The notes below the pieces were generated by a model that was not told the DNA's origin, did no database searches, and was given only the letters and a program-made list of their open reading frames with translations. A DNA stretch of 57,136 nt, counting the filler, from Stramenopiles sp. TOSAG23-6 (taxonomy: Eukaryota): assembly GCA_900128565.1 (NCBI GenBank). It is 2 parts of 2 records of this genome, joined end to end, with 100 filler letters (N's around TTAATTAATTAA, not from the genome) between each part and the next. Parts side by side here need not be neighbours in the genome. Positions count along the whole stretch, not along the records: positions 1 to 28,682 come from LT635976.1; positions 28,783 to 57,136 come from LT635977.1. One strand, given 5' to 3'. Both the position numbers and the translations under genes were made by a program. Of this stretch, positions 6,201 to 55,592 are shown in pieces. The first letter of the stretch is position 1. Each line of letters starts with the position of its first letter.

Positions 6201-9200
6201 CAAATCTAGCCATTGTAAGCCGAGCAACTGAACTGCCCGGGCAGCTGTCCTATTCAGATTATTCCATGAAAGATTAAGTTCTAGTAATGTAGACTGTGGG
6301 GAAACCGACAAGCTATTGGTGCCCTTCTTTTGTGCACTTGCATATGATTTTGCTCTTGTGTGTAATACCGAAAGCATCGGTTTGATGCCTGTGTCGGAAA
6401 TTCCATTGTCTGATAAATTTAGACGTATTAAATGTGGTATACCCCAATCACCTTTTGACCCACCTTTTTTTCTCTTTCCCTGTCTCTGTCGGCGAAAACA
6501 CTGTGCAAGTTGAACGACACCGGAATCTCGAAGGTTGCTTTTGCAGAGATCCAGTTCCTGTATTTGTGAATATTGCTTCAATCCAATCGACTTCAGCACT
6601 TCTATCGATTCGCTACCAACTTTATTACCTGAAAGTCCAAGTTCCATTATATCAACCGGTAGTAATTTCAAAACTTCAGCCAACAAACCATCAGTCAAAT
6701 CACAATTTTGTAATTGAAATGTCCGAAAAAAAATCATTTTGTCTAGCTTTAATGATTTCATAACCAATAGGATCTGATTAGGTGTTCCAGCAAGGGATGA
6801 TAAATTCACTTTGTTACTAACAATTCCTACATTCTGCATAATGAGAGATATCTGTGGGCATTGTTTTACCTTTTCACAGCCTAAATCATATACTTTAATT
6901 GGGTCTATCATAAAAGCATTTTCATCTTCATTTGGTACCTCTTTCTTTGATCTATGTAGTTTCTTCATGTGTATCTCTTGTCTAATTTCTTCATTACTTT
7001 GTCTAGATCGAATCGCATCTTTGGTGGAAGAAACTGCGATGGCCACCTCCGCTTCTAATTTTTTGTATTCTTCTTCCTGTTGTAACTTTTTCGCCCGTTG
7101 ACTCAATTTCCCACCGTATCTAGTTCTCCCTCGCTTCATCTGAGTTTTGGTCTTACTACTAACTGAATGTTTTGTTTTGATTTTAGAAGCACTACTCTTT
7201 TCATTATTTTTGGTTATTTTTGGCACACCCACTTTCTCGGGTTGAACAACTTCAGGCGAAGAGATTGATGAATACATTTTTTGCAGCGAGTGGCTGTAAC
7301 TACTATGTGGTCGCTTTACAATATCATCAAATCTGGCACGCGTTGTTCCATCTTCTCGGAGAAGTTCAGGCTTCACTTCTGGAAAATAGAACTTTTGACG
7401 AATCGCTGTTTGAGCTCGCAAACCTCTATTTTTATAATTATCTACAAAATTGTTGAATGATTTATGACGATATTCAGCAGCTTGCACCGCAAGAGCTTGT
7501 TCTCTCTGAAGCATCATCATTGTTGCACGTTTTGCTTTTTCCTTTGCAAGTCGCCGCTCTCGGGCAACTCGCTTCGATGCTGTTTTTGTTGATGCTTGAT
7601 TATCTTGAGTATGTTTTAAAACCTTTTCTAATAGAAGAGACGCGACACTAGGAAAGTCAGAAAGCATTGCTGAAAATCCCTTTCGATCCAAAGACAATAC
7701 TACTGCCCCGGTTTCATTTGCAATTACAGAAGCTGTACGAGGTTGACTAAAGACCAAAGCAACTTCACCAAATACAAAACCAGGTTCTAATACAGGAGCA
7801 TAGGTTACTGGGGTCCCATCTTTCATGTATTGTGAAAAAATATTTTTCATTCAAAATTCGTTAATTGTGGAATTTGGTACAAAACAAATTTAGGTAAACA
7901 ATTCAATTTTGAAACTTACATACGACCTTCTACTCTGACTACACCCTTAACTAAAATATAGAATTTGTCTCCCTGAGCACCCTGAACACAAATGCTTTCA
8001 TTTGGATTGTATGTTTCTTCAAAGAATATCCTAGATGTCTTGATCACTTTTTCAAAATCCAAACCTTCAAACATTGGTACATTCATCAACCATTTTGCTC
8101 TTTCTAAACCTGTCATTGTGAAAGTTCGCATCCCTCCACATTCTTTGAATTGAGGACTGTTTTCAACTTCGTCTTCAATTTCTCCCTCTTCGTCTTCTGA
8201 ACTAGATTCTAAATTTACACCCCTTGACTCTAGCTCGGTTTTTTTCTTCGCTTCTTTTTGTATTCTTAACTTTTCTTTTCTTTCCGCCTCTTTTTTATCT
8301 TCATTTGCTTTATAATCTTGGTCTTCTCGTTGCCGCTTTCTTTCTATGAATTCTTCATATTCTCGAAGTAACTTTAGTGATGGATTTGCTGCCTCAGCTT
8401 TGTCTCTTTCTATCAAAGCAACGGCCGCTCTTTCACGTTCCAGTTCGTCTAATACATGAGTGGCTTCAGCAGCTGCCAATGCTGCTACTTTTGCAGTAGC
8501 TCTGGCTATCTTTTTTGCTATTTTCTTCTGTTTCTCTATTGCCTTAAGGTCTAGCGCACTTGGTTCCTCCATCGTTTTTTCTTGCCTTAGAGATCGATCT
8601 ATAGATGTGCGTTCTGCGAGCTTATTTATTACCAAAAATAGTTCGAGATCCCCATTAGATATTTGAGAAACCATCGATCTAGCTTTGCCTTCTAAATTAG
8701 CTTTCAGATTAACGAGTTCTCTCTTATATCTGTTGTACCTTACGTCCCTTTCTTTCTTTTTTTGCCTTTCTAATCGCCGGGATTTCATTATTTCTGAAGC
8801 ATCCGTACACTTTGATGCTTTCTGAGTATTCTGTCTACGTCTTTCATTTGCTTCTTCTTTTTCTATTGCTTCCATTTTTTGCTCTTCAGCTTCATTTTTT
8901 TCTAAAAGATTATTGTATTTCTCAGCAACCCATGCACTCACCAATTTTTTACGTTGTTGAACTCTTATTTGATTTGAGCTACGTGGACTAAAATTTGATC
9001 CTACATGATTCGCTATTTTCTCCCACATTTTCATCGACCCGGGCAACATTCTTCGTTTCTTTCCTTTAGATTGAGCTTTCAAGTTTGGAAAAGTATATTT
9101 CCTTCCACCACGATTTTTTTTTGCTTCCAAATAACGCTTGTTTGCTCTTTGGCCTTCCCTGTCAGAGGTTTCGAAATCTCTCATCTTAAACATTGATGCA

Positions 9201-9394: not shown

Positions 9395-9626
9395 TGTGTA
9401 GATAAATTCAACAAATGAAAAATGTTTTTCTTGACCTTAGCAGATAAGTACTATTAGAGACACATTACGGTATACATGCTACAGTTTCATGCATCCACAG
9501 ATCGGACATGGCCATCAAAAATCGCTCAAAAATCGCCGAGAGATCTCGATCGAGATCAAAGAAAAGTTGAAGAATTGGCCGTGGATGAAAACTTACTTTT
9601 GCAAAAACATCGAATTAATAGCATAG

Positions 9627-10217: not shown

Positions 10218-10435
10218 CATTTTAGAGATGATACTATTATTCTCTTTTCATCCATGTAGATGCAAAACGTTTGCTCGAAATATATATAATTGAGTATATA
10301 TGTTATGCACAAAAAAAAAGTATAAAGTTTTTGTGTGTTTATGTGAGAAGCATCAGAGTATGATGACTATTTATATATTTTTTTTAATAAAAACTCTTTC
10401 TCATCATTAGCCCACTACTACTCAAAGATTTAAAA

Positions 10436-11598: not shown

Positions 11599-13420
11599 AT
11601 GTCAAGTTCTAATAGAGAAATTGAAGGGCAGCTTGCTGCGTTAGAGATAGGCGTTGACGCCGCAAATGGGAACACGTTTGGCCCGTCCAAAGAAACTTTA
11701 GACCGTTTAAAACAGAATGATAGGGGTGGCGACGAGTTTAAAGGTGGACGGGCGGATATTCATAAATTTTCTCATCCCGTTATAGCTCAGAGAATGAGTT
11801 CTGTTGAAAATGAACAGAAGCGAGGAATGGAAGAGTTTGTAAAGTGGCTCAAGGATAATGGGGCAATTTTTCCAAATCTGTACTTTAAATGTTACTCTGA
11901 AAGCGTAAGAGGAGTCCATGCTGCCAAAACTATTTCACCATATCAACAGGTTATGGCAATTCCATTGAAATGTATAATTACAGATGAAACTGGTAGGAGA
12001 ACTCCAATGGGGCAACGTTTAGAGGCTGTTCGGCATCAACTGACAGTTCCTAACCATTGTCAAGTTATTGTTTATATGATGACAACTCGTGAGCGTGGAG
12101 ATTCCTGGTTCCAGCCTTATTACGCCACCCTACCAAAAGATTTCAATAATTTCCCTATATTTTGGACGGACGAGGAACTCTCTTGGCTGGAGGGTTCCTC
12201 CCTCGTAGAACAAATTCGAGATCGGAAGAGAAATATCAGATCGGACTATGACACCATTTGCAAAGCACTACCTGAATTTAGCAGATTTACTTTTTCTGAT
12301 TTCTTGTGGTGTCGTACGGCAGTAGGAAGTCGTAACTTCAGTATCGTCGTGAATGGTGAAAAACGTACTGCAATGGTTCCTATGGCAGATATGCTCAACC
12401 ATGCACGTTTTATTTTTTTTCAATTTCGAATTTATTTTTAGTACGAAATTTTGTACCTAACGATTTTTTTTTGAAATATTTTTCCAAAATACAGTATCGT
12501 CCTAGAGAAACAAGTTGGACGTATGACAATTCGCAAGGAGCCTTTACTATGACGTCACTAAAGATATTGTCAGAGCACAATCAGGTGATGGATTCATACG
12601 GGAAGAAATGTAATTCAAAATTTCTCTTGCATTACGGTTTCACTATTGAATGTATGTTTTATTTTTTTTCAAATTCGAATTTTTTTTTTCGTACGGAATT
12701 TTTTACCTAACAAATTTTAATTTTTTTTTTGAAATATTTTTCCAAAATACATGTAACAGAGAAAGTGATGATAAATGTCAAAATGAATTAGATATCACTC
12801 TCTCCTTAGATGAGACTGATCCATTATTTGACAAGCGCAGTTATTATGTGAATAAATCTCGAGGCTATCGTGTTACTATGAATCATGTACGTTTTATTTT
12901 TTTTCAATTTCGAAATTATTTTTCGTACGAAATTTTATACCTAATAAATTTTAATTTTTTTTTGAAATATTTTTCCAAAATACATGAAGATCGAGGTACT
13001 CAGGATGCAATGGCATATTTACGTGTTGCTGTTGCTACTTCCGATGAACTTACATCATTTAGTCGCGGATTCCAGCATTCTGTTATATCAGCTCAAAATG
13101 AGTTAGCAGCACTTTTATTAATGGCTCAATTTTCAACGGAAGTATTGAGTGGGTACCCGAAGACAATGTCAGAAGATAATGCTGCACTTGCTGATGATGG
13201 ACTGGACCCCTTTTGTAATAAGCGCCACGCAATAATTGTGGTGAGAGGGGAGAAACAAATATGTCACTTTTATATTAAGCTTGCACAGGCTGCATCTCAG
13301 TTGCTGAAACTGCCCACAATGGAACGAAAACTTTTATTAAGTGAAAAATATACCGCAGACGATGATATTTCCAGGTTTTTGACTGCTACATGTCGTTCGC
13401 TTTTGTGTAAAGGATTATAA
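11599..13420 (+). CDS. SET-domain protein methyltransferase, SETD3/Rubisco-LSMT-like (509 aa); join(11599..12402,12495..12651,12753..12886,12986..13420)
   Basis: RGVHA, SWFQPYYATLP, PIFWTDEEL, MVPMADMLNH, DSYGKKCNSKFLLHYGF motifs plus a C-terminal substrate-binding helical domain. The three family introns restore a 1530-nt frame. Confidence 0.85.
12403..12494 (+). other. Intron (92 nt), family member, GC-AG
   Basis: AAC CAT|gcacgt...ccaaaatacag|TAT keeps the SET motif DMLNH. Confidence 0.85.
12652..12752 (+). other. Intron (101 nt), family member, GT-AT
   Basis: GAA T|gtatgt...ccaaaatacat|GT AAC. With this donor the next AGs give a frameshift (+7, +13) or a TAA stop (+9). Confidence 0.75.
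12887..12985 (+). other. Intron (99 nt), family member, GT-AT
   Basis: AAT CAT|gtacgt...ccaaaatacat|GAA GAT. Highly similar to the GC-AG intron 12403..12494. Confidence 0.75.
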
Positions 13421-28627: not shown

Positions 28628-28682
28628 AAGTATTTTGGAAAAATATTTCAAAAAAAAATCGTTAGGTACAAAATTTCGTACG

Positions 28683-37654: not shown

Positions 37655-38021
37655 ACTATTAACGAATCCTCACTAAGCGCATTCTCATTTGATTTCGCGA
37701 AATGATGTGGTTTGCTTATTCCACATTCGCTTGAGTGACACTCAATCAAGTTAAAACATGGTAGCAAATTGTGTGAATATGGTTTACCTTTTAAATTGTA
37801 TTTGATATAGTTTGATTGAATATAAATAAAAAGAATATTGAAAGATGAGTTTTTTTTCATACGAAATTTTGTACCTAACCAAAAAACAAATTTAATAGTG
37901 TCAGACAATTTCGTATGGATGTTTGTATTTTTTTCAAATACAATTGTACTATACTCTTAGTTTTTTAATAATCTAACTTTTTTATGATTCAGGATGTATT
38001 TATAATATTATATATCAAAAA

Positions 38022-42869: not shown

Positions 42870-43049
42870 GTAAGTGTTTCAAAACCCTAACCCTAATAAA
42901 ATGAAAAAAAAAAAATTATGAAATTTTGTACCTAACCAAAAAAAAAAAAAAAAAAAAATATTTTTTTTTTTTTTTTTTTTTGGTTAGGTACAAAATTTCA
43001 TAATTTTTTTTTTTTCATTTTATTAGGGTTAGGGTTTTGAAACACTTAC

Positions 43050-43997
43050 CAAGATAAATCTGACACCTGAATAAATTTGTTCACCTTGATGTAATATTTT
43101 ACCACAATGTGATATACAATCACCAATATTATTTGGTCTAATAGTAGTCTCAGCTCCTAAAAATGTTGTCCCTGTATTTTGGAAAAATATTTCAAAATTT
43201 TTTTACCGAAAAAAAAAAAAAATTTGTTAGGTACAAAATTTTTTTTTTTTTATTTTCCATAAAAAAATAAAAAAAAAAAAATTTCAAAAAAAAATAAAAT
43301 AAAACATACCTCCACCTGAAAACTCTTTTGGATCATTCAAAGCAATATTAAATGAAATTAATGTACCATCACGATGAGCTCCAAGTTTAGACTGTCCGTC
43401 AGAATCATACTTTACTATGAAAAGATCTTCGATATCAAGAGTAATTTCGCAGTCTGGAAAAAACAACGATTTCAGAGTTGGATTGATGACATTTTGAATT
43501 ATAGGTTCAACATATTGAAAAAGACCAATTGAATCCCTGATGGAGAAGTCCGTAGTGTTATGTTCAACATGTCTAGTAGTTCTCCAACCATAAAGAGCTG
43601 TGTGATGTTGTGCCATCGTTAGGATATCCTGACACTGATCTATTGATAGGGCATTCGGACAAATATATGCAAAGAATAGTTTTGAAGCAGTAGGAGATAT
43701 ATAAAGACTCTCGTGACTAATAGGTCGTACATTGAATGATTCACTATTGTTTAGATCAAGAACTCTTACAACTGGTTGTTGTGGGGCTGGACAAAATCCA
43801 AAGAGACGGAGATACGGCAGACTTTGACATTCCCCCCCTTTCAACGTGTATTTCGTTGATGTTTGCATAGATTGTCCAGTATTTTTATCTTTGCGTAAAG
43901 CTGTAGTCGTATTTTCAGAAGACTTTTCCCACGCTTTACAAATTGGTAATTTACAGTCATGAAAGTGGCCAACCATATATTGGCTTTTAAGCGTCAT
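43050..43997 (-). CDS. Mirror copy of the prolyl/lysyl-hydroxylase-like oxygenase
   Basis: Exact reverse complement of 41922..42869. Confidence 0.8.
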
Positions 43998-44247
43998 CTT
44001 GTTTCACTCTTTTTTGCTTTTTATATAGATTGATTGGACAATAATAATAATTGAAAATTCATATAGCCTAGGTACGCATAACGTAAAGTTGACTAACAGA
44101 AATTTAAATTAGTGCCACGTGGCATTTCGTGTATTTGACAACCGTACTATAACGTATACGCTGAGTATATTCATATCTTTTAATATCTTATGTTTTTTAA
44201 TGCCGTTTTCATTAAAACCGCATAAAAAACAATAGAGAAATGCTACC

Positions 44248-45054
44248 ATGAAATTAATTCTCAACATTTTTCTCGTTGTGACTACTACATATATTGTTAA
44301 TGCTATTCATATGAGTAATGGAATAGTTCAAGATGATGGTGGACCTGGTATGACAGAGTCTGGAAACCTCGAAAGAGAGGACATCGAAAGAGAGGACATC
44401 GAAAGAGAGGACATCGAAAGAGATGCTCTAGCTCTCAAAATTATGATTGCAGAAGCAGAAGCAGAAAAAAACAACAGAAAACTCGAAGCTTTGAATGCTC
44501 TCCTCTTAAGAACTTCTTCCATCCCAATGATAGCGATTGAAAACAGAAGAAACAAAGCTTTGGATGAAGGTCTTGAAAGAACTGTTTCCATCCCAATGAA
44601 TGCGCTTGCAAACAAAAGAAATGCTGTCTTTCCTAGAACTTCTTCCATTCCAATGATGGCGAATATTAATACTATGCCAGCAACGATTCCAACTTTACAA
44701 CTTGGTGGAAACGAAACACTCGCTCCACAAGGACATTTACAAAACGTTGAAAACGTTGGCAGTGTCCCTTCTTTCAGACGGGAACAGAAAGATGAAGCTA
44801 AGCGCATGTTACGTCTTTTCTATTATGTATTAAACACCTTTTCACTTAATGGTGGTTTTTTACGTAATGGTAGTGGTGGTGGTTCCAGTGGTGAGGCTGC
44901 GGATAATGGAGCACGCGTTCCACAAGGATCTAACGAACAAGATTTTGTTGGATATGTTGTTGATTCAGCTTTTGACTTTCTTCGAAGTCGTGAGGCACTT
45001 CTGATTTCTGGAATGTTGGCGGCATTCGCTGCTGGGACAAGATGGAGACGCTAG
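44248..45054 (+). CDS. Mirror copy of the hypothetical secreted repeat protein
   Basis: Exact reverse complement of 40865..41671. Confidence 0.65.
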   Translation: MKLILNIFLVVTTTYIVNAIHMSNGIVQDDGGPGMTESGNLEREDIEREDIEREDIERDALALKIMIAEAEAEKNNRKLEALNALLLRTSSIPMIAIENRRNKALDEGLERTVSIPMNALANKRNAVFPRTSSIPMMANINTMPATIPTLQLGGNETLAPQGHLQNVENVGSVPSFRREQKDEAKRMLRLFYYVLNTFSLNGGFLRNGSGGGSSGEAADNGARVPQGSNEQDFVGYVVDSAFDFLRSREALLISGMLAAFAAGTRWRR

Positions 45055-45155
45055 TAATGACTTTAATTGCATTTCGGTGTTTTGGCTAAACTCCAAACCT
45101 AATGTTCATACAGTGAAGAAAGATATAATAAAAGTGATTGGACTGTTTTTATTTT

Positions 45156-47072
45156 TCAATCCTCTAAAATATCAGGGTGGCAAATATGCGCAACTAAAGC
45201 ATACCTTGACTTAATTGTTGATATATTCCATGCATAATGTACAAAAGAATCATCCCATACTTCTACCTTCCCCACGCGCAATGGCCTTGTCTCATAGCCT
45301 ACATTCAATCCACTGGTACTCTCAGAGCTTATGAATGATTCAGGAACAATTAGAGGTAAATGTATCGTCAATCGGGAATTTGTTGGACCAGTGTGTAACT
45401 TGAGACTTGAACGGGGTCCTAATTTAAGGAATGACACAGAGCCCGATACATTTTGATTATTTACACATCCTCTTCGATTTGATATTAATTGTGTTTTCTG
45501 TAATATCTTACAGACGTGTGTAGCTCTTTTACATGCTTCCTCGTTCCACACTCCATTAATGGCTAAAAGAAAAGACGACCAACTAGATTTGGTGGTATTT
45601 CGTTTTGTATTGTTTTGCGTTGTTTTCTTCAGTAAATCTGTATCAAGCAGTGCAGCTGAGAATAATGAATCTTTATGTTTTGGTTCATCTTGTTGAAATG
45701 AAGATTGCAAAAGCTTCTTTAATTCTTTTATAATAATTGGTGCATTAGACTCAAGTTCATTCACAATACTTTGTAATTCCCTCCAATAAATTCCATTTTG
45801 AAACTGAATTTTTTCTGTCCACCATGGATATGCTCTTAGACGTATTAAATAATGTTCAGGTAATTGAAAATGATCCTTCCATAATACAATATTATACTTT
45901 CGAAGAACTTCAAATATTGATTTAATTATCTTTGATTTTGTACATGAAATATTCACTGTTTGATGAAGTAAAAGTATAATTTTCCGAGCTGCACTTTTGA
46001 TGATGTTATTTCTTGTCAAAAATAAATTTCCCTTTTTGAGTAATACTGACAATGTAAACTGCTTGGAACCCATTACATCTGGGAGTAAATTCGTGTCTAA
46101 TAAATCTTTTTTTATAACAATTTCTTCACAATCAACAAAAGAACAGATAGAAGAGTGTAACCCTAACCCTAATCTATTTCCCTTGGAATCAAAATTGAAA
46201 TGTTGAAATTGAGATGATATACACACATTGAATACTCTCAAATATACAGTCAATGCGTCTCTCATTTTATGTTGTACCTCACTTTCTCTCATTTTGTGTT
46301 GTGTTTCACTTTTTGTGTCACTTGTCGATAATTCAACGCAATGTGCGTGTTGAATTCCTAAATGAAACGCAGCAGATTCAACTATTTTTGTTTCAAAGTC
46401 GTCAATATCTTCAGCTTCTGATAGACAAATTGGTGAAGAACTAGCAGCCTTTTTGAAATGAAATACAGGGGTACCAAATGTCTTCAAAAAGTGGGTCACT
46501 GAAATAAAACGTCCGCTAGTAAATATTTTTATTTCGTTTGGTTTAGAGTGTTCGGGAGTACAGCCACCAAGAAATTTAAAAGAAATTGCTATTAAAGAAT
46601 GGACAAGTTTGCGACTAAAGACACTCGATGAAGATACAGCTACTTCGTGTTGTAGTCGTGCAATCATTGCAAAATGAATCTCCACAAGCAATGAATGATA
46701 TGATTCCTCTAATTTGTGTCCAAGTATAGCTGCTTCGCAGATTCGACAACGAAGGAGCAACTTTCTATAAATCAAATATAATATTCTTGTTGGTGGCATT
46801 GGTATAATCTTTTCAGCCCTAGAAGATACGTTTCTCGTGTCTAGAGAATTTAAAAACAATTGTTCGCCATACCAGGCAGCAACAGTTGCTTCTTTTTTTC
46901 TATGAAATTGTTGAAGTTTATTTGATAAAAGCAAAACACGGTCAGCGACTTCATGCTCACTTTCTGAACCTAACGAAGACACTGGGTTGAAAGAAAGAGA
47001 ATGTAGACCTGTTATCCCAATTGAATGCTTTTGAATAAGTAGAATAAAAAATATCAATCCGCATCGCATCAT
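45156..47072 (-). CDS. Mirror copy of the Asp/Asn beta-hydroxylase-domain protein
   Basis: Exact reverse complement of 38847..40763. Confidence 0.8.
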   Translation of the reverse strand: MMRCGLIFFILLIQKHSIGITGLHSLSFNPVSSLGSESEHEVADRVLLLSNKLQQFHRKKEATVAAWYGEQLFLNSLDTRNVSSRAEKIIPMPPTRILYLIYRKLLLRCRICEAAILGHKLEESYHSLLVEIHFAMIARLQHEVAVSSSSVFSRKLVHSLIAISFKFLGGCTPEHSKPNEIKIFTSGRFISVTHFLKTFGTPVFHFKKAASSSPICLSEAEDIDDFETKIVESAAFHLGIQHAHCVELSTSDTKSETQHKMRESEVQHKMRDALTVYLRVFNVCISSQFQHFNFDSKGNRLGLGLHSSICSFVDCEEIVIKKDLLDTNLLPDVMGSKQFTLSVLLKKGNLFLTRNNIIKSAARKIILLLHQTVNISCTKSKIIKSIFEVLRKYNIVLWKDHFQLPEHYLIRLRAYPWWTEKIQFQNGIYWRELQSIVNELESNAPIIIKELKKLLQSSFQQDEPKHKDSLFSAALLDTDLLKKTTQNNTKRNTTKSSWSSFLLAINGVWNEEACKRATHVCKILQKTQLISNRRGCVNNQNVSGSVSFLKLGPRSSLKLHTGPTNSRLTIHLPLIVPESFISSESTSGLNVGYETRPLRVGKVEVWDDSFVHYAWNISTIKSRYALVAHICHPDILED

Positions 47073-47309
47073 TGTCAAAATAGACAAATTAAAGAGTGGA
47101 TTTATTTATCTTGGCATACAATCAAGAAAATTTTAGCGTACGTACTACGTGTAAAGTTGACTAATGTTACATTGTTAACAGAAATTTAAATTGGTGCCAC
47201 GTGGCAATTCTAACCAACTTGTCAAACTTTGTCAAAATAATATCATCATTCTCGCGGCGATGTAACAAAAGTTTACTAATCTTAAGAAACGCATTGGAAA
47301 GGAGTTGAA

Positions 47310-47897
47310 ATGTCAACAGCTCCCTCTAAAACTAGCATCGGTGACATTTACTTACGCGATTGGGTTGATGTGTATTATCCTCGGCATGTGACTCAATTTA
47401 CTTCTCTACAAGATGTTTTTGATAGACTGTCAGCTTTTCATGTTGTTCCGCTTCCAAATTCAAAGCAACGTTCTGCAGCTTTACGAAAAAGAAAACGAGA
47501 GAATAACGAAAGAATGGAGGAAATTAAAAAAAAATGTACCGTGATGACAAAAGAGGTGAATGACCTTATAAATAAAGTGCGTTCTCCTGATATTCCAGTG
47601 GAACAGAAACTATTATTAGAGGAATTAGTGCTTAGAAGTGACCTCATGGCTACACCTGCTCAGAGGCGCCGTTGGTTAAAATTTATTCGAACTGCCTCTG
47701 ATCGCCAACGGAGGGCAGAGGAAAAAGAAAAGCGTTCCATAATTCGCGAACAGAAAGCCCGTGAAGCTGCTGCAAAGAGGAAAGCAAAAGAAAAAGAACT
47801 TTTGAGTAAATTAGGAATTTCAAAAACACAGTCACCTAGAAAAATAGTTCAGCCAATACGCCAAAGTAGTAGAAAACGGAAACCGAATTTGAGGTAA
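47310..47897 (+). CDS. Mirror copy of the hypothetical coiled-coil protein
   Basis: Exact reverse complement of 38022..38609. Confidence 0.58.
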   Translation: MSTAPSKTSIGDIYLRDWVDVYYPRHVTQFTSLQDVFDRLSAFHVVPLPNSKQRSAALRKRKRENNERMEEIKKKCTVMTKEVNDLINKVRSPDIPVEQKLLLEELVLRSDLMATPAQRRRWLKFIRTASDRQRRAEEKEKRSIIREQKAREAAAKRKAKEKELLSKLGISKTQSPRKIVQPIRQSSRKRKPNLR

Positions 47898-48264
47898 TTT
47901 TTGATATATAATATTATAAATACATCCTGAATCATAAAAAAGTTAGATTATTAAAAAACTAAGAGTATAGTACAATTGTATTTGAAAAAAATACAAACAT
48001 CCATACGAAATTGTCTGACACTATTAAATTTGTTTTTTGGTTAGGTACAAAATTTCGTATGAAAAAAAACTCATCTTTCAATATTCTTTTTATTTATATT
48101 CAATCAAACTATATCAAATACAATTTAAAAGGTAAACCATATTCACACAATTTGCTACCATGTTTTAACTTGATTGAGTGTCACTCAAGCGAATGTGGAA
48201 TAAGCAAACCACATCATTTCGCGAAATCAAATGAGAATGCGCTTAGTGAGGATTCGTTAATAGT

Positions 48265-49227
48265 TCATTCAGCATCACCATCAACCTCCATATTCGCCTT
48301 TGCAAGGGCCATCATAGTTTCATGCAACTCAGCGTCCTGTTCATTATTTGTCGCATGTGGTGCAACTTTAACATTAATACTTCCACCCTTTTCAGTAATC
48401 ACTTCTTTGACCTTTTCAATCGATTTATTCAAGGTTTCAATACCAGCATTTTTATCAAGCGTGTTCAATTGCATAACATACAATGGGGGAGCAACTAATT
48501 TGATTGACATGCTTTCAGTCTTTGAAATTGTCTTTCCCGCAGAAAGTGCAGCTTTGATTGCGTCAATACCTTCTACTGTAAAACATGTAAGTTCAATATC
48601 TGCACGGACTTTAATCGCTTTTGCAGCAAGTTTGCGGTTGACGTCCTTCATAAGAGCTCTCATGATGTTTTCTGGAATATCCAAACCTCTGAAGACGTTT
48701 TCTGGATCTGTAACCGCAACTTTAAGAGCATCGAATGCATGACCGTACTTTTTAGACAATGGCCATGCAATATTCTTATAGAGGTCTTCGATGTACACTT
48801 TGCACTTTCTAGCAACGTTCAACAAAACACTATGTACTGTCTTAGACTTGTTGTAGCGGGCAGTGAATTTAGCGACATCCTCTGCAGGGACACGGCGTTT
48901 AGACAAATCCACATATCCCTTTTCCTTGTCAACACGAAGTACCAATACCACCTCTTGTCTGTTTACACGAATGAGTTTGTTGATTGATCGAATACGTCTG
49001 CGTGAAAGCTCTGAAAGAAGAACCATACCTTCAATATTGTTGTACTCCATTAACGAGACGTAAGCTCCCAATGCCTCGACTTTTTTAACGTTTACCATTA
49101 CCAACGTTTCAACTTCTGGAAAACGCTGTTTATAGTAACGACACTTACTCATGTGTTCTTCCTCAGTAGCATTGCGAAATACACCAGTTGGCTCATCGTG
49201 ATCATTATCAGTACTTTCGGCCGCCAT
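48265..49227 (-). CDS. EIF2S1: Mirror copy of eIF2 alpha
   Basis: Exact reverse complement of 36692..37654. Confidence 0.93.
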   Translation of the reverse strand: MAAESTDNDHDEPTGVFRNATEEEHMSKCRYYKQRFPEVETLVMVNVKKVEALGAYVSLMEYNNIEGMVLLSELSRRRIRSINKLIRVNRQEVVLVLRVDKEKGYVDLSKRRVPAEDVAKFTARYNKSKTVHSVLLNVARKCKVYIEDLYKNIAWPLSKKYGHAFDALKVAVTDPENVFRGLDIPENIMRALMKDVNRKLAAKAIKVRADIELTCFTVEGIDAIKAALSAGKTISKTESMSIKLVAPPLYVMQLNTLDKNAGIETLNKSIEKVKEVITEKGGSINVKVAPHATNNEQDAELHETMMALAKANMEVDGDAE

Positions 49228-49670
49228 TCTGATTATACAAACGATATATCTGTATATATGTTGATTGTGTACGTAGTCAAAGTTTATGTTCAGTTCCATA
49301 TTTTCGTATAAGAATTTGATACCTAAATTTCTACGCGTGTGCATCTCAATCGTGTGAATTTTCATGGTGATAACTAGTACCGGGTATCTTTAGTGAAAAA
49401 AAGAAAAAAAAAGTCACGAAAAAACAAGAAAAATAATTTTTGATTTGTTTTTTGTTTTTGTTTTGTGTTTGTTTGTGTTGATGTCAACACTCAAGTTCGA
49501 GTTAATGACAGCAGCAGTAAAAATCATTAAATTCTCAACTCTTGCTCAACGAACATAAACTATTGTGAACCCAGTATTAACATTCCCGATTTGAACATTC
49601 AAGTAGTCTATATCGGTATCTATTAGTAATTGCAAGACGAGAGAAAGAACAAAACACATTTTAGTTACGT

Positions 49671-50356
49671 ATGGCTCATCTTCTTGTCATCACAAGGCAT
49701 TGTTTCGTTGTGTGTATTGTAATTTTATTAACCATTCCAACGGTAACCATTTCTGCAATTCGTGGACACTCAAGTTCAAAACCTTCAAAACTGGCAATTA
49801 GAACAAATGCAACAAATCCAACAAATCCAACAAATCCAACATTCAGAACTTTGGAGAAGCTGAAATCAGACGAAACAGTCAATGAAAAACTTGCACCACA
49901 TCTACTGGATATCAAGCTCCTTTGGGCAGCGCGACACGGTTATATTCGCACAGTAAATCTTTTGTTGCAGGCTGGAGCTTCTTGCAATGCAAAAGATCAT
50001 AACAATCAGTCTGCTTTGCTATGGGCTGCAAATAATGGCCACTCTGAAATAGTAAGATTGTTAATCTCAGCTGGTGCTCTTGATGATGTACGTTTTCACT
50101 TTTTGAATTTATTTTTTCGTTCGTACTAAATTTTTTGCCTAACGATTTTTTTTTTTTTTTTGGAAAAAAAACAATAAATGTTGCAGTGATTGAAGATTAT
50201 CTCGATAGATTACACCAGTCAAACAAATCAAAATTATCTCCGTCACAGTATAATGACAATAAAGCCACATATAACCCTAACCCTAGTAGTCCTAATGATG
50301 AAAATTGGCCAATTCTTTGTAATCTGTGGTTTTGGCCGGTTCCTTGTACATGGTGA
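49671..50356 (+). CDS. Mirror copy of the ankyrin-repeat protein; intron 50088..50179 (probable GT-AT)
   Basis: Exact reverse complement of 35563..36248. Confidence 0.68.
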
Positions 50357-50832
50357 AAACAAGGGGGTGAAAACTTTAACCCTGCCTGAAAAAAAAATTG
50401 TTTAGTACGGAATTTTCTTTCGTACCGTAACGAATTTAGAATTTACTACTATATAGATATTGCTACTATAAAAAACTACGTATTTTTAAAAAAGTTAAAA
50501 AACGTGTTGTTTGCTTTTGCATCTTTCAAACTATCTGGTTCAATATTGTTTTTTCGATAGAACTTTTTAATAATTCCTAATGATAACATTCGACCACAAC
50601 TTTCTCATAAAGTAATCATCATCATCCAAGAATATGAAATAATAATTTTGTATTGAGAGACAGGAACCGTCAATTATTTTTACGAAAAAACACGAAAAAA
50701 CAAGAAAAATGTAAAATTTATACCGATCAGCTGACCAAGGAGCTTGACTTCAGGAACTCAGAATTTACCTCGTGGTATCAATTCTACCATTTGTATATTG
50801 AAAACAAAATACATTTGCAACTATTTTTCAAA

Positions 50833-52176
50833 ATGAATTATCTCTGTATTGTGCTGCTATTATTGATGATAATAAGTATAAGAGAAAGTAAAGGAGCTAC
50901 AACAGCAGAAATTACACTAGGCCTAAGAGGAGGTCCTACTTCGCAATTATCTCGCAGCGATTTAGGTAGTTTCTCTGCTGTTTCACGTGCGATGAACAAG
51001 GCAAGTGAAGTTGAATTTGGCATACGCGCACTTCGTACATCTAAAATGGTGAAAGAACTGATGCAATTATCGAGTGGAAATGTAGATATTAATTCCGTCA
51101 ATCAACATAAAGATGAGTCATCAATTCAATGGCTACGCCGTCTAGAAGGTATTCGTAAGGAATTGGAAAGAAATGCTTTAACTGTATTGTATGATACTAC
51201 AGGTGGAATCAATTGGAGTCGTAATAAAAATTGGAAGACAGATCAAGATATTTGTACATGGGATGGAGTAACGTGTAATGAAAGAGGGTGGGTTACTAAA
51301 TTGCACTTGTGGAGCAACAACCTATCTGGTTCAATACCAACGGAAATTGGTCTACTAAGAAATCTTGAAATGTTAATCTTGAATCACAACGAACTAACTG
51401 GTTCAATCCCAACGGAAATTGGTCAACTAATAAAGCTCCAAGATTTGATCTTGGACGAAAACCAACTAACTGGTTCAATACCAACAGAAATTGGTCAACT
51501 ATCAAGTCTCACTCAATTGTCCTTGCCATTCAACAAACTATCTGGCTCAATCCCAGCAGAAATTGGTCTACTAAGAAATCTCAAAGTTTTGGACTTGCGT
51601 ATCAACCAACTATCTGGTCCAATACCTTCGGAAATTGGTCAACTAACAAAGCTCAAAGAATTGATTTTGCGGAAAAACCAAATATCTGGTGCAATTCCAA
51701 AAGAAATTGGTCAACTAACGAAGCTAAGAGATTTGTCCTTGTCTCACAACAAACTATCTGATCCGATTCCAACGGAAATTGGTCAACTAAAAAGTCTTGT
51801 AAATTTTTACTTGTTCAACACCAGACTATCTGGTACAATTCCAAAAGAAATTGGTCAACTAACAAGTCTCGTTAGATTGTACTTGAACGACAACCAACTA
51901 TCTGGTGCAGTACCAACTGAAATTGGTCTACTAACAAATCTTGAACGTTTGATCTTGGGAGACAACAGCCTATCTGGTTCTATACCAAAAGAAATTGGGC
52001 AACTAACAAAACTTGAAAATTTGAATTTGGGTTTCAACAAACTATCTGGCTCCATTCCAAAAGAAATTGGTCAACTAACAAGTCTTGTTAGATTGGATTT
52101 GCAGAGAAACAACCTATCTGGTCGAATACCAGAGGAAATTGGTCAACTAACAAATTTTTTTGGTTTTTTACATTGA
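50833..52176 (+). CDS. Mirror copy of the secreted LRR protein
   Basis: Exact reverse complement of 33743..35086. Confidence 0.85.
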   Translation: MNYLCIVLLLLMIISIRESKGATTAEITLGLRGGPTSQLSRSDLGSFSAVSRAMNKASEVEFGIRALRTSKMVKELMQLSSGNVDINSVNQHKDESSIQWLRRLEGIRKELERNALTVLYDTTGGINWSRNKNWKTDQDICTWDGVTCNERGWVTKLHLWSNNLSGSIPTEIGLLRNLEMLILNHNELTGSIPTEIGQLIKLQDLILDENQLTGSIPTEIGQLSSLTQLSLPFNKLSGSIPAEIGLLRNLKVLDLRINQLSGPIPSEIGQLTKLKELILRKNQISGAIPKEIGQLTKLRDLSLSHNKLSDPIPTEIGQLKSLVNFYLFNTRLSGTIPKEIGQLTSLVRLYLNDNQLSGAVPTEIGLLTNLERLILGDNSLSGSIPKEIGQLTKLENLNLGFNKLSGSIPKEIGQLTSLVRLDLQRNNLSGRIPEEIGQLTNFFGFLH

Positions 52177-52667
52177 TTTGAAATTAGAAAAACAATTGGG
52201 TAAATATATCTAGTTGGTTCAGTATTGTTTTTTCGATAACTTTTCATGTTATATATGTTATTTTTTTGATAAATAATAAATGTACAAAATGTATATAAAA
52301 TGGTATTATCAAAATATTTTGAAACAAAATTAGAGAACTTTTTAATAATTCCTAATGATAACATTCGACCACAACTTTCTCATAAAGTATATATCATCAT
52401 CATTCAAGAATATGAAATAATAATTTTGTATTGAGAGACAGGAACAGTTAATTATTTTTAGGAAAAAACACGAAAAAACATTTAAAATTTATACCCTTGA
52501 GTCAAAACTACAAATGCACTACAAATTATAAATACCTTGACAAACTCAAGTGTCGTTCGAGTTATAGGACTGTGTGCGCTTACAACATTAATAACTGAAA
52601 AGTTTTATTATTAAACCTTTCAAGAATACATCTAATACATTTACTTTGATAACGTGGAACACGGAGT

Positions 52668-55592
52668 ATGGGAAGCATCATCACTAAATTAGTGCCACCT
52701 GATTATAAAGTTTCAATAGCGTCTAATGTGTGGAAGTGGCGTAGTGCTTTCTCAATACTTTTCTTTATCCTTGGTATTGTATGGATTTCTTTATTCCCTC
52801 TCGCATGTATAACATGTGGTGAAACGAAATGCAGGGGTACGTATCTATCTGAGAATGCCTTAATGCCTGGCTCATCGCTAGTTTCTTTTAGCAATGCTGA
52901 GATATCGCGTGCAAAAGAATTCGACGCTGCATTTTGGGAAATGCCACCTTCGAAAATTGGTGCAAAGTCTCACCAACGTCGTGATTGGTTATTGTCAACC
53001 CTTAGAGATATGGGTATAGAGGCAAATATTCACCGTTATGAGGTTGATGGTGTCGAGCGATATAATGTATATGGAGTTCTAAGGGCATCGAGAGCCTCTG
53101 GAGCTGAAGGCATGGTACTAGCCGTCACTGGTGCTAATGAAGATGTAAGTAAGAATAGACTACACTCAACTACAAGGGATACGAATTATACCTCTGGACT
53201 AGCAACATCTTTAGCTCTTTTTGAAATGTTAACGAAACTAAATTGGCTTGCTAAAGATTGTGTTCTTCTGATTCCATTAGATATTGATCTTAACAATCCT
53301 CTGGAAAACCCTAATCAAAACAAAAAACAAAAACAAAACAATCAACAAGGATTACCTTTGTCATATGGTATTGAAGCATGGCTTGAAGCATACACATTAC
53401 CACAACCTAAACTATCACAATCATTTCTGCGTGTTGGAACGATTCGCGGTGCAATTGTTGTTCAAGCTTCAGTCGATTTTGGACGTTTTACACATATAGG
53501 TAAGTAAAAAAACATCGAANTTNTGTTTTTTTTTTTTCGTACGAAATTTCGTACCTAACAAATTTTTTAGAATTTTTTTTGAAATATTTTTCCAAAATAT
53601 AGCAGCACTTCTTCCTGGTATAAACGGTCAATTACCTAATTTGGACTTGTTTAATGTTGTTGAAAAAGTTTCAGATGTTCCAATCATGTTGACAAGAACA
53701 GCACATATTGATTCCTTTGCGAAATTTACAGTAATAGCCATGCCATATTTTAAACAATTTCTTCTTTGCATTCCAAAAAAATTTCGACATTATTTTAATG
53801 ATTATCTTCAGAAAATGGCAGGAGTTTTGCGTTTTAGTGGAAGCCTTGCTCGTGGTCCATTAGGGCCTCATGCTCATTTTAGTAAATATAATATTGAAGC
53901 GTTGACAATTACACCTGTTACAATTGGTAGAAAGACATATGGTGGTGCAAGATCAAAATCATTTGGTGTTCTTGTGGAAAAACTTTTACGAAGTATGTAC
54001 GTAACCCTAACCCTACCTAAATACGAACCCTAACCCTACCTTAAAAAAACAAACCTAACCCTATTGAATAGTATATATATATTTCTTGGTACACATCAAA
54101 ATCATACCAAGTTTTTGTTTTTAACAAATATCAAATTTGACATATTGTGTAACACTGTAGTAATAATTTAGAGGAAAGATTTCATCAATCATTTTGTAGG
54201 TTTTCATTATTTTACATTTTTTTAAAATTTTTTTTCCAAAAAACGTTTCGTACGAAATTTTGTACCTAACAAAAAATTTGAAATTTTTTTTTGAAATATT
54301 TTGAAAAAATACATGGTTTTATATATTACCCTCTCCGACACTAATGGTCACTATTGGTGAATATAGTTTTGTTTTGCTTTTGATATGTATTCCTGTAATT
54401 ATAAAAATCTTAGGTTTGATTTATTCCGTGGACAGACTCGATTTTGTCGGTGCTCTATGTAGGTTAACCCTAACCCTACCCTTACTTTTACATTTTTTTT
54501 TTTTTTTGTACGAAATTTTGTACCTAACAAATTTTCACATTTCAATTTTTTTTTTAAATATATGGCCATCCTTGCTACCTTTTGCGATGGGGGGAATATT
54601 GTTTATTGTATCTACACAATCGTTAGAACAATACAAAAACAAACTTTATTTTTTAGATGTTTTCAAAACAAATGGTATCGGAGATTTTTTTGTAGAGGTT
54701 TTGAATAAGATTGCATTGTTTTTTCATAATGTTTTAGTAGGTAGAAATTTTGTAGAAAATATATTGATTATTATGTAAGTTTTATTTATTTTTTTTGTTT
54801 TCCGTAAAAAAAAAATCGAATTTATTTTTTATAGTAAATTTTGTACCTAACAAAATTTTTTAGATTTTTTTTTTGAAATATTTTTCCAAAATATATGCTA
54901 TGTACGGAAGGTTTAATTTTCATGTATGTCGGTTATAATTTAATGTACGCAAAGGGACGTACTGGTCGTTGGCAGGCTGTTAAAATTATAACACTCATTA
55001 TTTGGCTTTCAATACATCTTGTCCTTGGCCTTGGCAATTTTTCACTTGCTTGTAGGTTAACCCTAACCCTAACCCAAGTTTTCATTTTAATTTCTTTTTT
55101 TTTTAATTTTTTTTCGTAGATAATTTTGTACCTAATGTTAATTTTTTTTTGAAATATTTTTCCAAAATATAGTACTTTCTGGATTAATCACTGTCCCATT
55201 TTTAACAATAGTTCAGCCACTGCTCTCAACAAATTCAATCACAATGAAAGATGTTCTTCAGGTATATTTTATTTTATTTTTTCAATTTTTTGTCTAAATT
55301 TTTTTTTTATAGTAAATTTTGTACCTAACAATTTTTTTTTAGATTTTTTTTGAAATATTTTTCTACAATACAGTTACTGTTTTTAGTCTTCTTATCACCG
55401 GTTTCGATATTTTTTGTATTTATTCCAAAAATAAGTCATAGTATTGGCGTACATCATGAAATATTGAATCTTGAAACATTTAAAAATGATTGGAATAATT
55501 ATGGAAATTGGATTTATCCTTTAATTTGTATTTGTTATACACCTATACACTCTATTGCTACGGCTATTGCATTTACAGGGCAAGTGCAATGA
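52668..55592 (+). CDS. GAA1: GAA1 (mirror copy); join(52668..53499,53603..53996,54161..54195,54315..54458,54564..54774,54897..55051,55173..55261,55374..55592)
   Basis: 2079-nt spliced frame. Introns end AG, AG, AT, AT, AT, AG, AG. Confidence 0.88.
54196..54314 (+). other. GAA1 intron 3 (119 nt), GT-AT
   Basis: CAA TCA TTT T|gtaggt...gaaaaaatacat|GG TTT TAT ATA TTA restores the conserved HQSF.FY.L motif. Confidence 0.85.
54459..54563 (+). other. GAA1 intron 4 (105 nt), GT-AT, contains CCCTAA repeats
   Basis: CTA T|gtaggttaaccctaaccc...aaatatat|GG CCA. Confidence 0.7.
54775..54896 (+). other. GAA1 intron 5 (122 nt), GT-AT
   Basis: ATT AT|gtaagt...ccaaaatatat|G CTA. Confidence 0.72.

What the first reader, a model, noticed from the sequence alone, without database searches (positions are those of the whole stretch)
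7825..54896. Most introns appear to use non-AG 3' splice sites (GT-AT, GT-TT): an apparently AG-independent splicing system
Seen: 21 complete unique introns in 7 unrelated genes. Seven end in AG; 13 end in AT (7825-7919, 12652-12752, 12887-12985, 19056-19156, 19775-19875, 19941-20040, 20188-20295, 23413-23513, 23663-23756, 50088-50179, 54196-54314, 54459-54563, 54775-54896); one ends in TT (19346-19447). A further TT end is visible at 28628. The AT/TT ends sit at the same position of the shared 3' motif (CAAAATAC-AG vs CAAAATAC-AT/TT) as the AG of canonical members, and cutting there keeps the frame in all 14 cases. For several (19775, 19941, 20188, 12652) no usable AG is nearby for that donor. 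Established: the U2 spliceosome almost invariably needs 3' AG. Donors here are U2-like (GTATGT/GTACGT/GTAAGT), not U12 RTATCCT, and a CTAAC branch-like motif is present. Inference: a lineage whose spliceosome routinely accepts non-AG acceptors for about two thirds of introns. I do not know this GT-AT-dominated pattern from described non-canonical systems, but cannot search the literature. Caveat: some introns have a more distant in-frame AG alternative.
Basis: partly seen in the sequence, partly recalled or inferred. Interest (0 to 1): 0.95.

Follow-up and report, generated by a model that had tools for sequence, protein, structure and literature searches.

The report
Repeated introns that end in AT
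A marine protist genome carries a family of near-identical 100-base introns, probably left by a mobile element, most of which end in AT instead of the almost universal AG yet must be cut out exactly, and the public gene models translate them as protein.

Summary
The window has 21 complete, mutually similar introns of 92-164 nt in 7 genes, plus one cut by a gap. All have the form GTAYGT...CTAAC...T-run...AAAATAC plus two further bases. Thirteen end in AT, one in TT and seven in AG. For 8 of the 14 non-AG introns, removal at exactly the claimed borders gives gapless alignments to orthologues inside conserved blocks. One of these (20188-20295) is also skipped in a polyA metatranscriptome contig. 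AG dinucleotides 4-8 nt downstream are passed over.

This looks like a 2-bp target-site duplication. It also makes the register ambiguous, because GT-AT and AT-AC give the same mRNA. Three tests favour GT-AT.

My reading: an introner-like mobile element carries the donor and branch site, and its 3' end comes from the duplicated target, mostly AT. A U2-like spliceosome tolerates T at the last position. This is a new variant of the known class of transposon-derived non-canonical introns. I found no earlier description. The snRNAs, splicing proteins and lariats could not be examined.

The parts
7825..7919 (-). Family intron in the cNMP-binding/LRR gene. at|GTAAGT...ACAT|g; ends AT.
   Evidence: Pfam cNMP_binding profile coordinates run on across it. 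An in-frame GTATGT(-4)...AAAG(+5) alternative exists. Not tested against homologues (one search found none).
12403..12494 (+). Family intron in the SET / Rubisco-LSMT-like gene. at|GCACGT...ACAG|t; a GC-AG sibling.
   Evidence: RNA contig X8 record 17 joins 12402 to 12495 with 0 other letters. Gapless junction MLNH|YRPR against P0003 and P0004. This fixes the register: the cut is before the G, and the AT stays in the exon.
12652..12752 (+). Family intron. at|GTATGT...ACAT|g; ends AT.
   Evidence: Gapless junction HYGFTIE|CNRESD against P0003 and P0004. AGs at +7 and +9 are not used.
12887..12985 (+). Family intron. at|GTACGT...ACAT|g; ends AT.
   Evidence: Gapless junction TMNH|EDRGTQ against P0003 and P0004. 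The AG at +4 is not used.
19056..19156 (-). Family intron in the DnaJ-domain membrane-protein gene (18890-21784, minus strand). at|GTATGT...ACAT|g.
   Evidence: Gapless junction QCFM|ICTHKLNAMNGSL against P0002.
19346..19447 (-). Family intron. tt|GTACGT...ATTT|g; ends TT.
   Evidence: Gapless junction GGPFRML|FGSW against P0002.
19775..19875 (-). Family intron. at|GTACTT...ACAT|a.
   Evidence: Gapless junction WGFKDS|IQLANLALLGATF against P0002. RNA contigs X8 record 21 and X9 record 28 stop at 19774 with 44 and 30 further letters. X9 record 29 (19815-19905) is unspliced.
19941..20040 (-). Family intron. at|GTTTGT...ACAT|gcag.
   Evidence: Gapless junction EIHSH|AENAGINDVLRLEW against P0002. 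The GCAG ending at +4 is not used.
20188..20295 (-). Family intron. at|GTATGT...ACAT|g.
   Evidence: RNA contig X9 record 30 joins 20186 to 20295, skipping 108 nt, with 0 other letters. Gapless junction FTGFTVN|GFLSSV against P0002.
20426..20519 (-). Family intron. at|GTATGT...ACAG|g; a GT-AG sibling preceded by AT.
   Evidence: RNA contig X8 record 22 starts at its border with 84 further letters.
23413..23513 (+). Family intron near the start of the TPR gene. at|GTACGT...ACAT|t.
   Evidence: Supported by frame only, with no orthologue test. An internal TTTTAG 12 nt after the branch motif is not the in-frame end.
23663..23756 (+). Family intron in the TPR gene. at|GTATGT...ACAT|g.
   Evidence: Independent DNA contig X3 record 8 (23709-25592) covers the 3' end, and all 5 of its differences lie elsewhere.
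28628..28682 (-). 3' part of a family intron ending ...AAAATACTT|g (TT). The 5' part is lost in an N gap.
30546..30657 (-). GAA1 gene intron. ag|GTATAT...ACAG|t.
30747..30867 (-). GAA1 intron. tt|GTAGGTTAACCCTAACCC...ATAG|t; the 5' part is telomere-like.
31023..31144 (-). GAA1 intron. at|GTAAGT...ATAT|g. The same intron as 54775-54896 on the duplicate arm.
   Evidence: (poorly conserved region).
31356..31460 (-). GAA1 intron. at|GTAGGTTAACCC...ATAT|g. The same intron as 54459-54563.
   Evidence: (poorly conserved region).
31605..31723 (-). GAA1 intron. tt|GTAGGT...ACAT|g. The same intron as 54196-54314. It is the one AT-ending intron without a matching repeat, so the registers give different mRNAs.
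   Evidence: The GT-AT register gives HQSF|WFYILP. Seven of the 8 homologues aligned have F at that position and one has I. The shifted register would give L.
31759..31922 (-). GAA1 intron. at|GTACGTAACCCTAACCC...TGTAG|t; rich in telomere-like repeats, GT-AG.
   Evidence: gapless junction LLRS|INNLEE.
32317..32419 (-). GAA1 intron. ag|GTAAGT...ATAG|c.
   Evidence: Pfam Gaa1 profile 3-115 and 114-225 on either side.
35740..35831 (-). Ankyrin gene intron. at|GTACGT...AAAT|g. The same intron as 50088-50179.
   Evidence: Supported by frame only.
42610..42747 (+). Family intron. ag|GTATGT...ACAG|g.
37827..37901 (+). Partial copy of the element (branch-site region only) between the convergent 3' ends of eIF2-alpha and a GLTSCR1-like gene. 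It is not a coding-sequence intron.
42960..57136 (.). Exact inverted duplicate of 28783-42959. It holds second copies of the GAA1, ankyrin and other introns.
   Evidence: 14,177 of 14,177 bases identical.

Best explanation
These are copies of one very high-copy, introner-like mobile element of about 100 nt in a marine heterotrophic stramenopile. The source label of an identical database protein points to the MAST-3 group.

Each copy brings its own U2-type donor (GTAYGT), a branch motif (CTAAC) about 34-48 nt from the 3' end, a T-run and a conserved 3' block (...GAAATATTTTTCCAAAATAC). The last two intron bases repeat the two exon bases before the donor, as a 2-bp target-site duplication would. 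Because the preferred target is AT, most copies end in AT and some in AG or TT.

The introns are removed from the RNA exactly at GT...A(T/G). This is most likely done by a major-type spliceosome whose second step keeps A at position -2 but accepts U as well as G at position -1. It appears to find the site from its position or context after the branch point rather than from an AG.

Shown: the family, the flanking repeat, the need for exact removal, the bypass of nearby AGs, one spliced RNA contig, and the register for one AG-ending sibling.

Inferred: transposition as the origin, the GT-AT register for all copies, and which spliceosome acts and how it picks the site.
For: 1. One family. 21 complete introns in 7 genes align end to end. 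All copies inside genes are in the sense orientation, and one partial copy is intergenic. In the DNA run X3, bins containing the element reach summed depths of 694-10,296, against 4-11 in bins without it (one further element-containing bin, 7500-8127, reaches 94), and up to 97 distinct contigs match it. This figure is not a copy number.

2. Exact removal. 8 of 14 non-AG junctions are gapless inside conserved blocks. X9 record 30 skips 20188-20295.

3. AG is not the cue. AGs at +4 (12887, 19941), +7 (12652) and +8 (19775) are not used, nor are internal AGs 12-17 nt after the branch motif.

4. Flanking repeat. The exon's last 2 nt equal the intron's last 2 nt in 16 of 21 introns, against 10.4 expected (permutation p = 0.002). 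AG before the donor occurs only with an AG end: 3 of 7 against 0 of 14 (Fisher p = 0.026).

5. GT register.
- In the sibling 12403-12494, RNA and orthologues keep the AT in the exon and remove the AG.
- 31605-31723 cannot be read as AT-AC, and the conserved F favours GT-AT.
- In this register the last base is T or G in 21 of 21 introns, and the base at -2 is A in 20 of 21.

6. The DNA is real. Contigs from an independent seawater metagenome (X3) run into the elements at 5 of these sites. X3 record 8 confirms the AT end at 23755-23756.

7. The design has precedent. Introners that carry the 5' site and take the 3' site from the target-site duplication are described for Chrysochromulina (10.1101/2022.06.06.494994, passages).
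Against: - Direct RNA evidence is thin. One non-AG intron is seen spliced, from one contig at depth about 3. That same contig runs 4 nt into the next, unspliced intron, so an intron-lacking DNA allele is not excluded.
- Element words are about as over-represented in the RNA runs X6 and X9 as in the DNA run X3. Bulk efficient removal is therefore not shown.
- 5 of 21 introns lack the matching repeat.
- AT before the donor is nearly invariant (15 of 21), so it could be a splice-site or insertion preference rather than a duplication.
- The terminal inverted repeat is short and imperfect: GTAT.TTT, 7 of 10 positions.
- No empty site in a close relative was found.
- In 12 of 14 non-AG introns the AT-AC register gives the same mRNA.
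- No snRNA or splicing protein could be inspected.
Confidence: 0.6

Rival explanations
1. The same elements are cut two bases to the left, as AT-AC introns (AT|GTAYGT...AAAATAC|AT read as /ATGTAYGT...AAAATAC/). This is a border pair that both spliceosomes are known to handle. On this view no new 3' specificity is needed for most copies.
For: 12 of 14 non-AG introns are AT/AT, so the shifted cut gives the identical mRNA. U2-dependent AT-AC introns exist (PMC1557818, passages). Nine of those 12 would end in AC.
Against: - The donor hexamer fits the U1/U6 consensus only in the GT register. In the shifted register positions +4 and +5 are T and A (the consensus is recalled).
- In the sibling 12403-12494 the AT is proven to be exonic.
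- 19346 (TT/TT) and 31605 (TT/AT) cannot be AT-AC, and the conserved F at 31605 favours GT-AT.
- In the shifted register the ends would be AC, AT, AA and TA, which is less regular than A(T/G).
Confidence: 0.15
2. The introns are substrates of a diverged minor (U12-like) spliceosome, which is known to tolerate GT-AT and AT-AN ends.
For: GT-AT accounts for 7 of 66 non-canonical U12-type introns and is splicing-competent (PMC1557818, passages). Physarum shows a large expansion of atypical U12 introns with inverted repeats (PMC11282704, section 6). GTATGTTT and TACCTAAC each share 6 of 8 letters with the U12 donor and branch consensus (consensus recalled).
Against: - None of the 21 donors has TATCC.
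- The branch-like motif lies 34-48 nt from the 3' end (58 nt in one sibling whose typed coordinates were about 3 nt off), not about 10-20 nt.
- Long T-runs are present.
- An Rfam scan of the window found no snRNA, but the window is only 57 kb.
Confidence: 0.07
3. Removal is not by the spliceosome at all. It could be an RNA-structure-guided mechanism, as in the non-conventional introns of euglenids, or excision at the DNA level with one copy of the flanking repeat left behind.
For: Direct repeats at the borders and short inverted ends are features of euglenid and Amoebophrya elements. The products are exact whatever the terminal dinucleotide.
Against: - No conserved end-to-end pairing: RNAalifold predicts 0 pairs, and single folds have z-scores of -2.2 to +0.1.
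- The donor, branch motif and T-run are canonical and conserved.
- Single-cell and metagenome DNA both contain the elements.
- An RNA contig carries one intron spliced next to one unspliced.
Confidence: 0.07
4. The segments are not removed as claimed. They would be coding insertions, as the public gene model has them, or be spliced to distal AGs, or the terminal T would be a sequencing error.
For: The database protein P0001 translates three of them. Several have in-frame distal AG alternatives. 7825-7919 has a nearby canonical alternative.
Against: Orthologues lack exactly these 33-36 codons and nothing more at 8 junctions. The inserted 'peptides' are F/L/Y/K-rich read-through of T-runs. The same AT end recurs in 13 independent copies and in an independent metagenome contig.
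Confidence: 0.04

Closest known systems
[quoted passage not shown]
   Same: Many near-identical short introns at unrelated sites. A direct repeat at the borders. The element supplies the donor, and the 3' end comes from the duplicated target. The mRNA is restored exactly.
   Different: There the recruited 3' site is AG and the duplication is 4 bp. Here the repeat is 2 bp, is mostly AT, and the intron is removed all the same. The inverted repeat is weak. No autonomous element was seen.
Non-canonical, MITE-derived introns of the tunicate Fritillaria borealis (PMC11282704, section 6; PMC13326754, passages)
   Same: [quoted passage not shown] AG-AT is among the common border pairs.
   Different: In Fritillaria the 5' end is also non-canonical (AG-AC, AG-AT) and the borders are diverse. 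Here the 5' site is strictly canonical and only the last base departs from the rule (T or G). The lineage is a stramenopile, not an animal.
Amoebophrya introner elements (PMC7789003, passages)
   Same: A marine protist in which more than 60% of introns are non-canonical. Direct repeats overlap the borders. The introns are repeated families that standard annotation pipelines miss.
   Different: Amoebophrya has 3-5 nt repeats, 8-20 nt inverted repeats that form hairpins, no dominant dinucleotide pair and no detectable U1. Here there is no hairpin, a strong U1-type donor and one dominant pair.
Rare GT-AT introns of animals, both U12-type and the U2-type DGCR2 intron (PMC1557818, passages)
   Same: The same terminal dinucleotides. 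This shows that a spliceosome can ligate after AT.
   Different: Those are a handful per genome. Here they are 13 of 21 introns in 57 kb, and all belong to one repeat family.

Membership tests
U2-type (major) spliceosomal introns | 5' donor GT (rarely GC) with a GTRAGT/GTATGT-like hexamer | tested here: met
   20 of 21 are GT and 1 is GC. The hexamers are GTAYGT, GTAAGT or GTAGGT, with GTACTT, GTTTGT and GTATAT once each.
U2-type (major) spliceosomal introns | Branch motif CTRAY followed by a pyrimidine tract | tested here: met
   CCTAAC or a one-letter variant in every copy, 34-48 nt from the 3' end for the introns whose coordinates I had typed correctly; one value of 58 nt came from coordinates about 3 nt off. 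T-runs follow it.
U2-type (major) spliceosomal introns | 3' end YAG | tested here: not met
   14 of 21 end in AT or TT. 8 of these are verified by orthologue alignment.
U2-type (major) spliceosomal introns | Removed from RNA through a lariat | tested here: inconclusive
   RNA contigs skip 20188-20295 and 12403-12494. Lariats cannot be tested with these tools.
U12-type (minor) introns | Donor (A/G)TATCCTT (consensus recalled) | tested here: not met
   0 of 21.
U12-type (minor) introns | Branch site TCCTTAAC about 10-20 nt from the 3' end, with no pyrimidine tract (recalled) | tested here: not met
   The distance is 34-48 nt (58 nt in one intron whose coordinates were about 3 nt off) and T-runs are present.
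U12-type (minor) introns | U11, U12, U4atac and U6atac present in the genome | not testable with these tools
   No genome is held. Rfam found nothing in the window.
Introners / introner-like elements | Many sequence-similar introns at unrelated positions | tested here: met
   Very high summed depth in metagenomes.
Introners / introner-like elements | Target-site duplication at the borders (in the DNA-transposon type) | tested here: met
   16 of 21 match, p = 0.002. AT is itself nearly invariant, so part of the signal could be a site preference.
Introners / introner-like elements | Terminal inverted repeats | tested here: inconclusive
   GTAT(G)TTT against AAA.ATAC, about 7 of 10 positions, in AT-rich sequence.
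Introners / introner-like elements | Recent mobility: presence/absence between close relatives, or empty sites | tested here: inconclusive
   The metagenome scan gave only relatives at 30-37% identity. The orthologue contigs P0003 and P0004 lack the introns, but they may be transcripts.
Euglenid non-conventional / Amoebophrya hairpin introns | Stable pairing that brings the two intron ends together | tested here: not met
   0 consensus pairs. Fold z-scores of -2.16, 0.06, -0.01 and -1.01.
U2-type AT-AC introns | Intron begins with A and ends with C, with an ATAAGT-like donor | tested here: not met
   Impossible for 2 of 14. The sibling 12403 keeps the AT in the exon. The donor does not fit this register.

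The most novel reading that the evidence does not exclude
A free-living marine stramenopile lineage has a major-type spliceosome whose exon-ligation step no longer needs the terminal G. It accepts A-U as readily as A-G, and it picks the 3' site by context or distance, ignoring true AGs a few bases away. This relaxed step would have let a mobile element with a 2-bp duplication and a preference for AT targets spread as introns to become the majority intron class.
Probability: 0.5. Interest if true: 0.8.

Novelty: new variant of a known kind. Interest (0 to 1): 0.72.

Why it matters
1. It would be a natural system in which a canonical donor and branch site are combined with a non-AG acceptor. That isolates 3' splice-site choice at the second catalytic step as the one altered feature. 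In Fritillaria, Amoebophrya and Euglena everything varies at once.

2. It shows that an introner need not land on, or create, an AG to become an intron. This widens the range of insertion sites that can yield introns.

3. It has a practical consequence. Standard GT-AG gene finders mis-annotate this genome. The database protein P0001 is 100% identical to read-through of three of these introns. Protein catalogues and functional inferences for this abundant, uncultured group therefore probably contain many false low-complexity insertions and broken models.

Tried and rejected
- **Whole genome:** not held, so there was no search for snRNAs, U2AF35, Prp8, Slu7, Prp18 or genome-wide intron statistics.
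- **Rfam scan of the window:** no hits.
- **Protein atlas on eIF2-alpha:** gave the family only and no useful taxonomy.
- **Metagenome-contig scan** with the exon 19450-19773: only 3 loci at 30-37% identity, so no close relatives or empty sites.
- **Search for transcript-derived peptides across the 7825 junction:** none. Its canonical alternative stays open.
- **Representative search for GAA1:** only homologues at or below 51% identity, and about 40% or less among the eight aligned. These were useful at 3 conserved junctions and uninformative at two AT junctions.
- **Consensus RNA structure or hairpin** bringing the ends together: none.
- **A 3-bp duplication (ATG):** rejected, because the first downstream exon base is G in only about 14 of 20 introns.
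- **TG...CA termini (register -1):** rejected, because it leaves no direct repeat.
- **Ciliate-type DNA elimination:** rejected on the canonical splice signals and the RNA contig.
- **Depth in read laying:** cannot rank expression or give copy number. Gaps in RNA cover carry no weight. Most of the joints listed there are chimeric joins between element copies.
- **Literature:** six searches found no description of GT-AT introns or introners in MAST-3. In four MAST genome papers the words intron, splice and splicing are either absent or used only in methods. Supplementary files were not seen. Introner family tables and gene-structure tables there could bear on novelty.

Full report
**What is in the window.** The window is eukaryotic, about 35% G+C, with large exons and genes on alternating strands. 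DNA runs X1 and X2 hold 0.91 of its sampled words. Seawater metagenomes X3-X5 hold 0.46-0.76. Marine metatranscriptomes hold small shares.

One database protein, P0001, carries a source label that points to the MAST-3 stramenopile group. It is 100% identical to window translations that read straight through three of the claimed introns. The public gene model of this or a near-identical genome therefore treated these segments as coding.

Positions 42960-57136 are an exact inverted copy of 28783-42959, with 14,177 of 14,177 bases identical. This is probably an amplification or assembly artefact.

**Checking the observation.** All 14 intervals have the stated ends. Together with seven AG-ending relatives and one intron cut by a gap, they form a single family: GTAYGTTTTA...CGTACGAAATTTTGTACCTAAC...T-run...GAAATATTTTTCCAAAATAC plus two bases.

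The key test is whether the cell must remove them exactly there. Three genes gave answers.
- **DnaJ-domain membrane-protein gene (18890-21784, minus strand).** I spliced out 20188-20295, 19941-20040, 19775-19875, 19346-19447 (TT) and 19056-19156. The product aligns to the 740-residue orthologue P0002 with no gap at any of the five junctions, all inside conserved blocks. Unspliced, the alignment shows a 36-residue insertion exactly at 20188-20295.
- **SET / Rubisco-LSMT-like gene (11578-13420).** Removing 12403-12494 (GC-AG), 12652-12752 and 12887-12985 gives gapless alignments to P0003 and P0004.
- **GAA1.** The junction of 31605-31723 (the same intron as 54196-54314) falls in the conserved HQSF.Y.LP block without a gap. 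Two further AT junctions lie in unconserved stretches.

This gives 8 of 14 verified, 2 consistent and 4 untested against homologues. For one of the untested four, 7825-7919, Pfam profile coordinates are continuous across the intron. However, a canonical in-frame alternative 4 nt upstream and 5 nt downstream exists, and no transcript-derived peptide was found to settle it.

**RNA and DNA reads.** These all come, the only read-laying run allowed.
- polyA metatranscriptome contig X9 record 30 joins 20186 to 20295, exactly skipping the 108-nt non-AG intron, with no mismatches.
- X8 record 17 skips the GC-AG intron 12403-12494.
- X8 record 21 and X9 record 28, from two studies, stop exactly at 19774 although they have 44 and 30 more letters.
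- X9 record 29 spans an intron-exon border unspliced.
- X9 record 30 runs 4 nt into the neighbouring intron. Processing is therefore partial, or, less likely, the contig comes from DNA of an allele that lacks one intron.
- Independent metagenome DNA contigs (X3) run into the elements at five sites. X3 record 8 covers the 3' end at 23756, and all five of its differences lie elsewhere.
- Bins containing the element reach summed depths of hundreds to about ten thousand in DNA and up to about two thousand in RNA. The tool warns that this is neither a copy number nor an expression level. I note that the excess is similar in DNA and RNA, so bulk efficient removal is not demonstrated.

The two exon bases before the donor equal the last two intron bases in 16 of 21 introns: AT/AT 12, TT/TT 1 and AG/AG 3. 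The exceptions are AT/AG 3, TT/AG 1 and TT/AT 1. The expected number of matches is 10.4, and the permutation p is 0.002. AG before the donor occurs only with an AG end (Fisher p = 0.026).

This is the signature of a 2-bp target-site duplication. The AT/AG cases can be explained by a later T-to-G change. The signature has two consequences.
- The AT end is probably nothing more than the duplicated insertion target.
- The borders can slide, so GT-AT and AT-AC give the same mRNA in 12 of 14 cases.

**Which register.** Three observations favour a cut before the G.
1. In the sibling 12403-12494, both the RNA contig and the orthologues (MLNH|YRPR) keep the AT in the exon and remove the AG.
2. In 31605-31723 the flanks differ (TT/AT). 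The GT-AT cut gives HQSF, matching F in 7 of 8 homologues, whereas the shifted cut gives L.
3. Only in this register is the pattern regular: G at +1 in 21 of 21, a U1/U6-type hexamer, A at -2 in 20 of 21, and T or G at -1 in 21 of 21.

I recall, but did not test, that in spliceosome structures the last G pairs with the first G and the A at -2 pairs with the branch adenosine. A U, which shares its keto and imino groups with G, is the least drastic replacement.

**AG is not what marks the site.** True AGs lie 4 nt (12887, 19941), 7 nt (12652) and 8 nt (19775) beyond verified AT ends. Others lie 12-17 nt after the branch motif inside several introns. None of these is the site used. The branch-like A lies 34-48 nt from the end for the introns whose coordinates I had typed correctly; one further sibling gave 58 nt from coordinates that were about 3 nt off. 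No conserved RNA structure links the two ends.

**Comparison with known systems.**
- Introners that bring the donor and take the acceptor from the duplication are known (passages of 10.1101/2022.06.06.494994). There the acceptor is AG.
- Transposon-derived introns with non-canonical borders and flanking repeats are known in Fritillaria (AG-AC, AG-AT), Amoebophrya, dinoflagellates and euglenids (PMC11282704, section 6 read in full; PMC7789003, passages; PMC13326754, passages). In those systems the 5' end also varies, or hairpins are involved.
- GT-AT occurs rarely in animals, mostly in U12-type introns (PMC1557818, passages). These introns fail the U12 donor and branch-distance criteria.

Six literature searches and word searches in four MAST genome papers found no description of this pattern. 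Supplements were not available and might list such families.

**Verdict.** The best reading is an introner-like element family whose 3' end comes from a 2-bp AT target duplication, removed by a U2-like spliceosome that tolerates T at the last position (confidence about 0.6). The rivals are:
- an AT-AC register (0.15)
- a diverged minor spliceosome (0.07)
- non-spliceosomal removal (0.07)
- no removal, or an artefact (0.04)

This is a new variant of a known kind. It is of real interest to people who study splicing and intron gain, and it matters in practice for annotating these genomes.

Noticed in passing
28783-42959 and 42960-57136; N gaps at 28683-28726 and 28739-28782: A perfect 14,177-nt palindrome (100% identical inverted arms) begins right after two 44-N gaps and runs to the end of the window. 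This is most likely an amplification chimera or an assembly artefact, not biology.
   Followed up: yes
11398, 23239, 28794, 29119, 30842-30860, 31441, 31856-31916, 35634, 39748, 42883 (and mirror copies): The telomere-like motif AACCCTAACCCTA, allowing one mismatch, occurs 24 times against 0.05 expected. In five introns it sits just after the donor with the C-rich strand in the sense orientation (for example GTAGGTTAACCCTAACCC). Other copies lie inside open reading frames and in intergenic DNA. I have no explanation for this.
   Followed up: partly
19057-20042 (minus strand): Database protein P0001 (207 aa, source label pointing to MAST-3) is 100% identical over 75 and 57 residues to translations that read through introns 19941-20040, 19775-19875 and 19056-19156. 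It is a mis-annotated public gene model.
   Followed up: yes
element-containing bins, for example 11896-13151, 18804-20059 and 23200-23827: Words from the element are about as over-represented in the RNA runs X6 and X9 as in the DNA run X3. This could mean many unspliced transcripts, stable excised introns, or DNA in the RNA libraries.
   Followed up: no
22042-22388: Three copies of a 94-nt unit (AATGACTTTATGGCCATTTCAAAAACACC...), 73-97% identical, lie in an intergenic stretch upstream of the TPR gene.
   Followed up: no
28790-29000 (minus strand) and 42840-42990: Two tandem internal element fragments (CATACGAAATTTCATACCTAA) are separated by long T-runs next to the N gap. The centre of the palindrome falls inside an element-like A/T-run. 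The repeats may have helped cause the misassembly.
   Followed up: no
9627-10217 (+) and 10436-11137 (-): Two neighbouring convergent genes (their 3' ends face each other) each encode tandem MIT domains.
   Followed up: no
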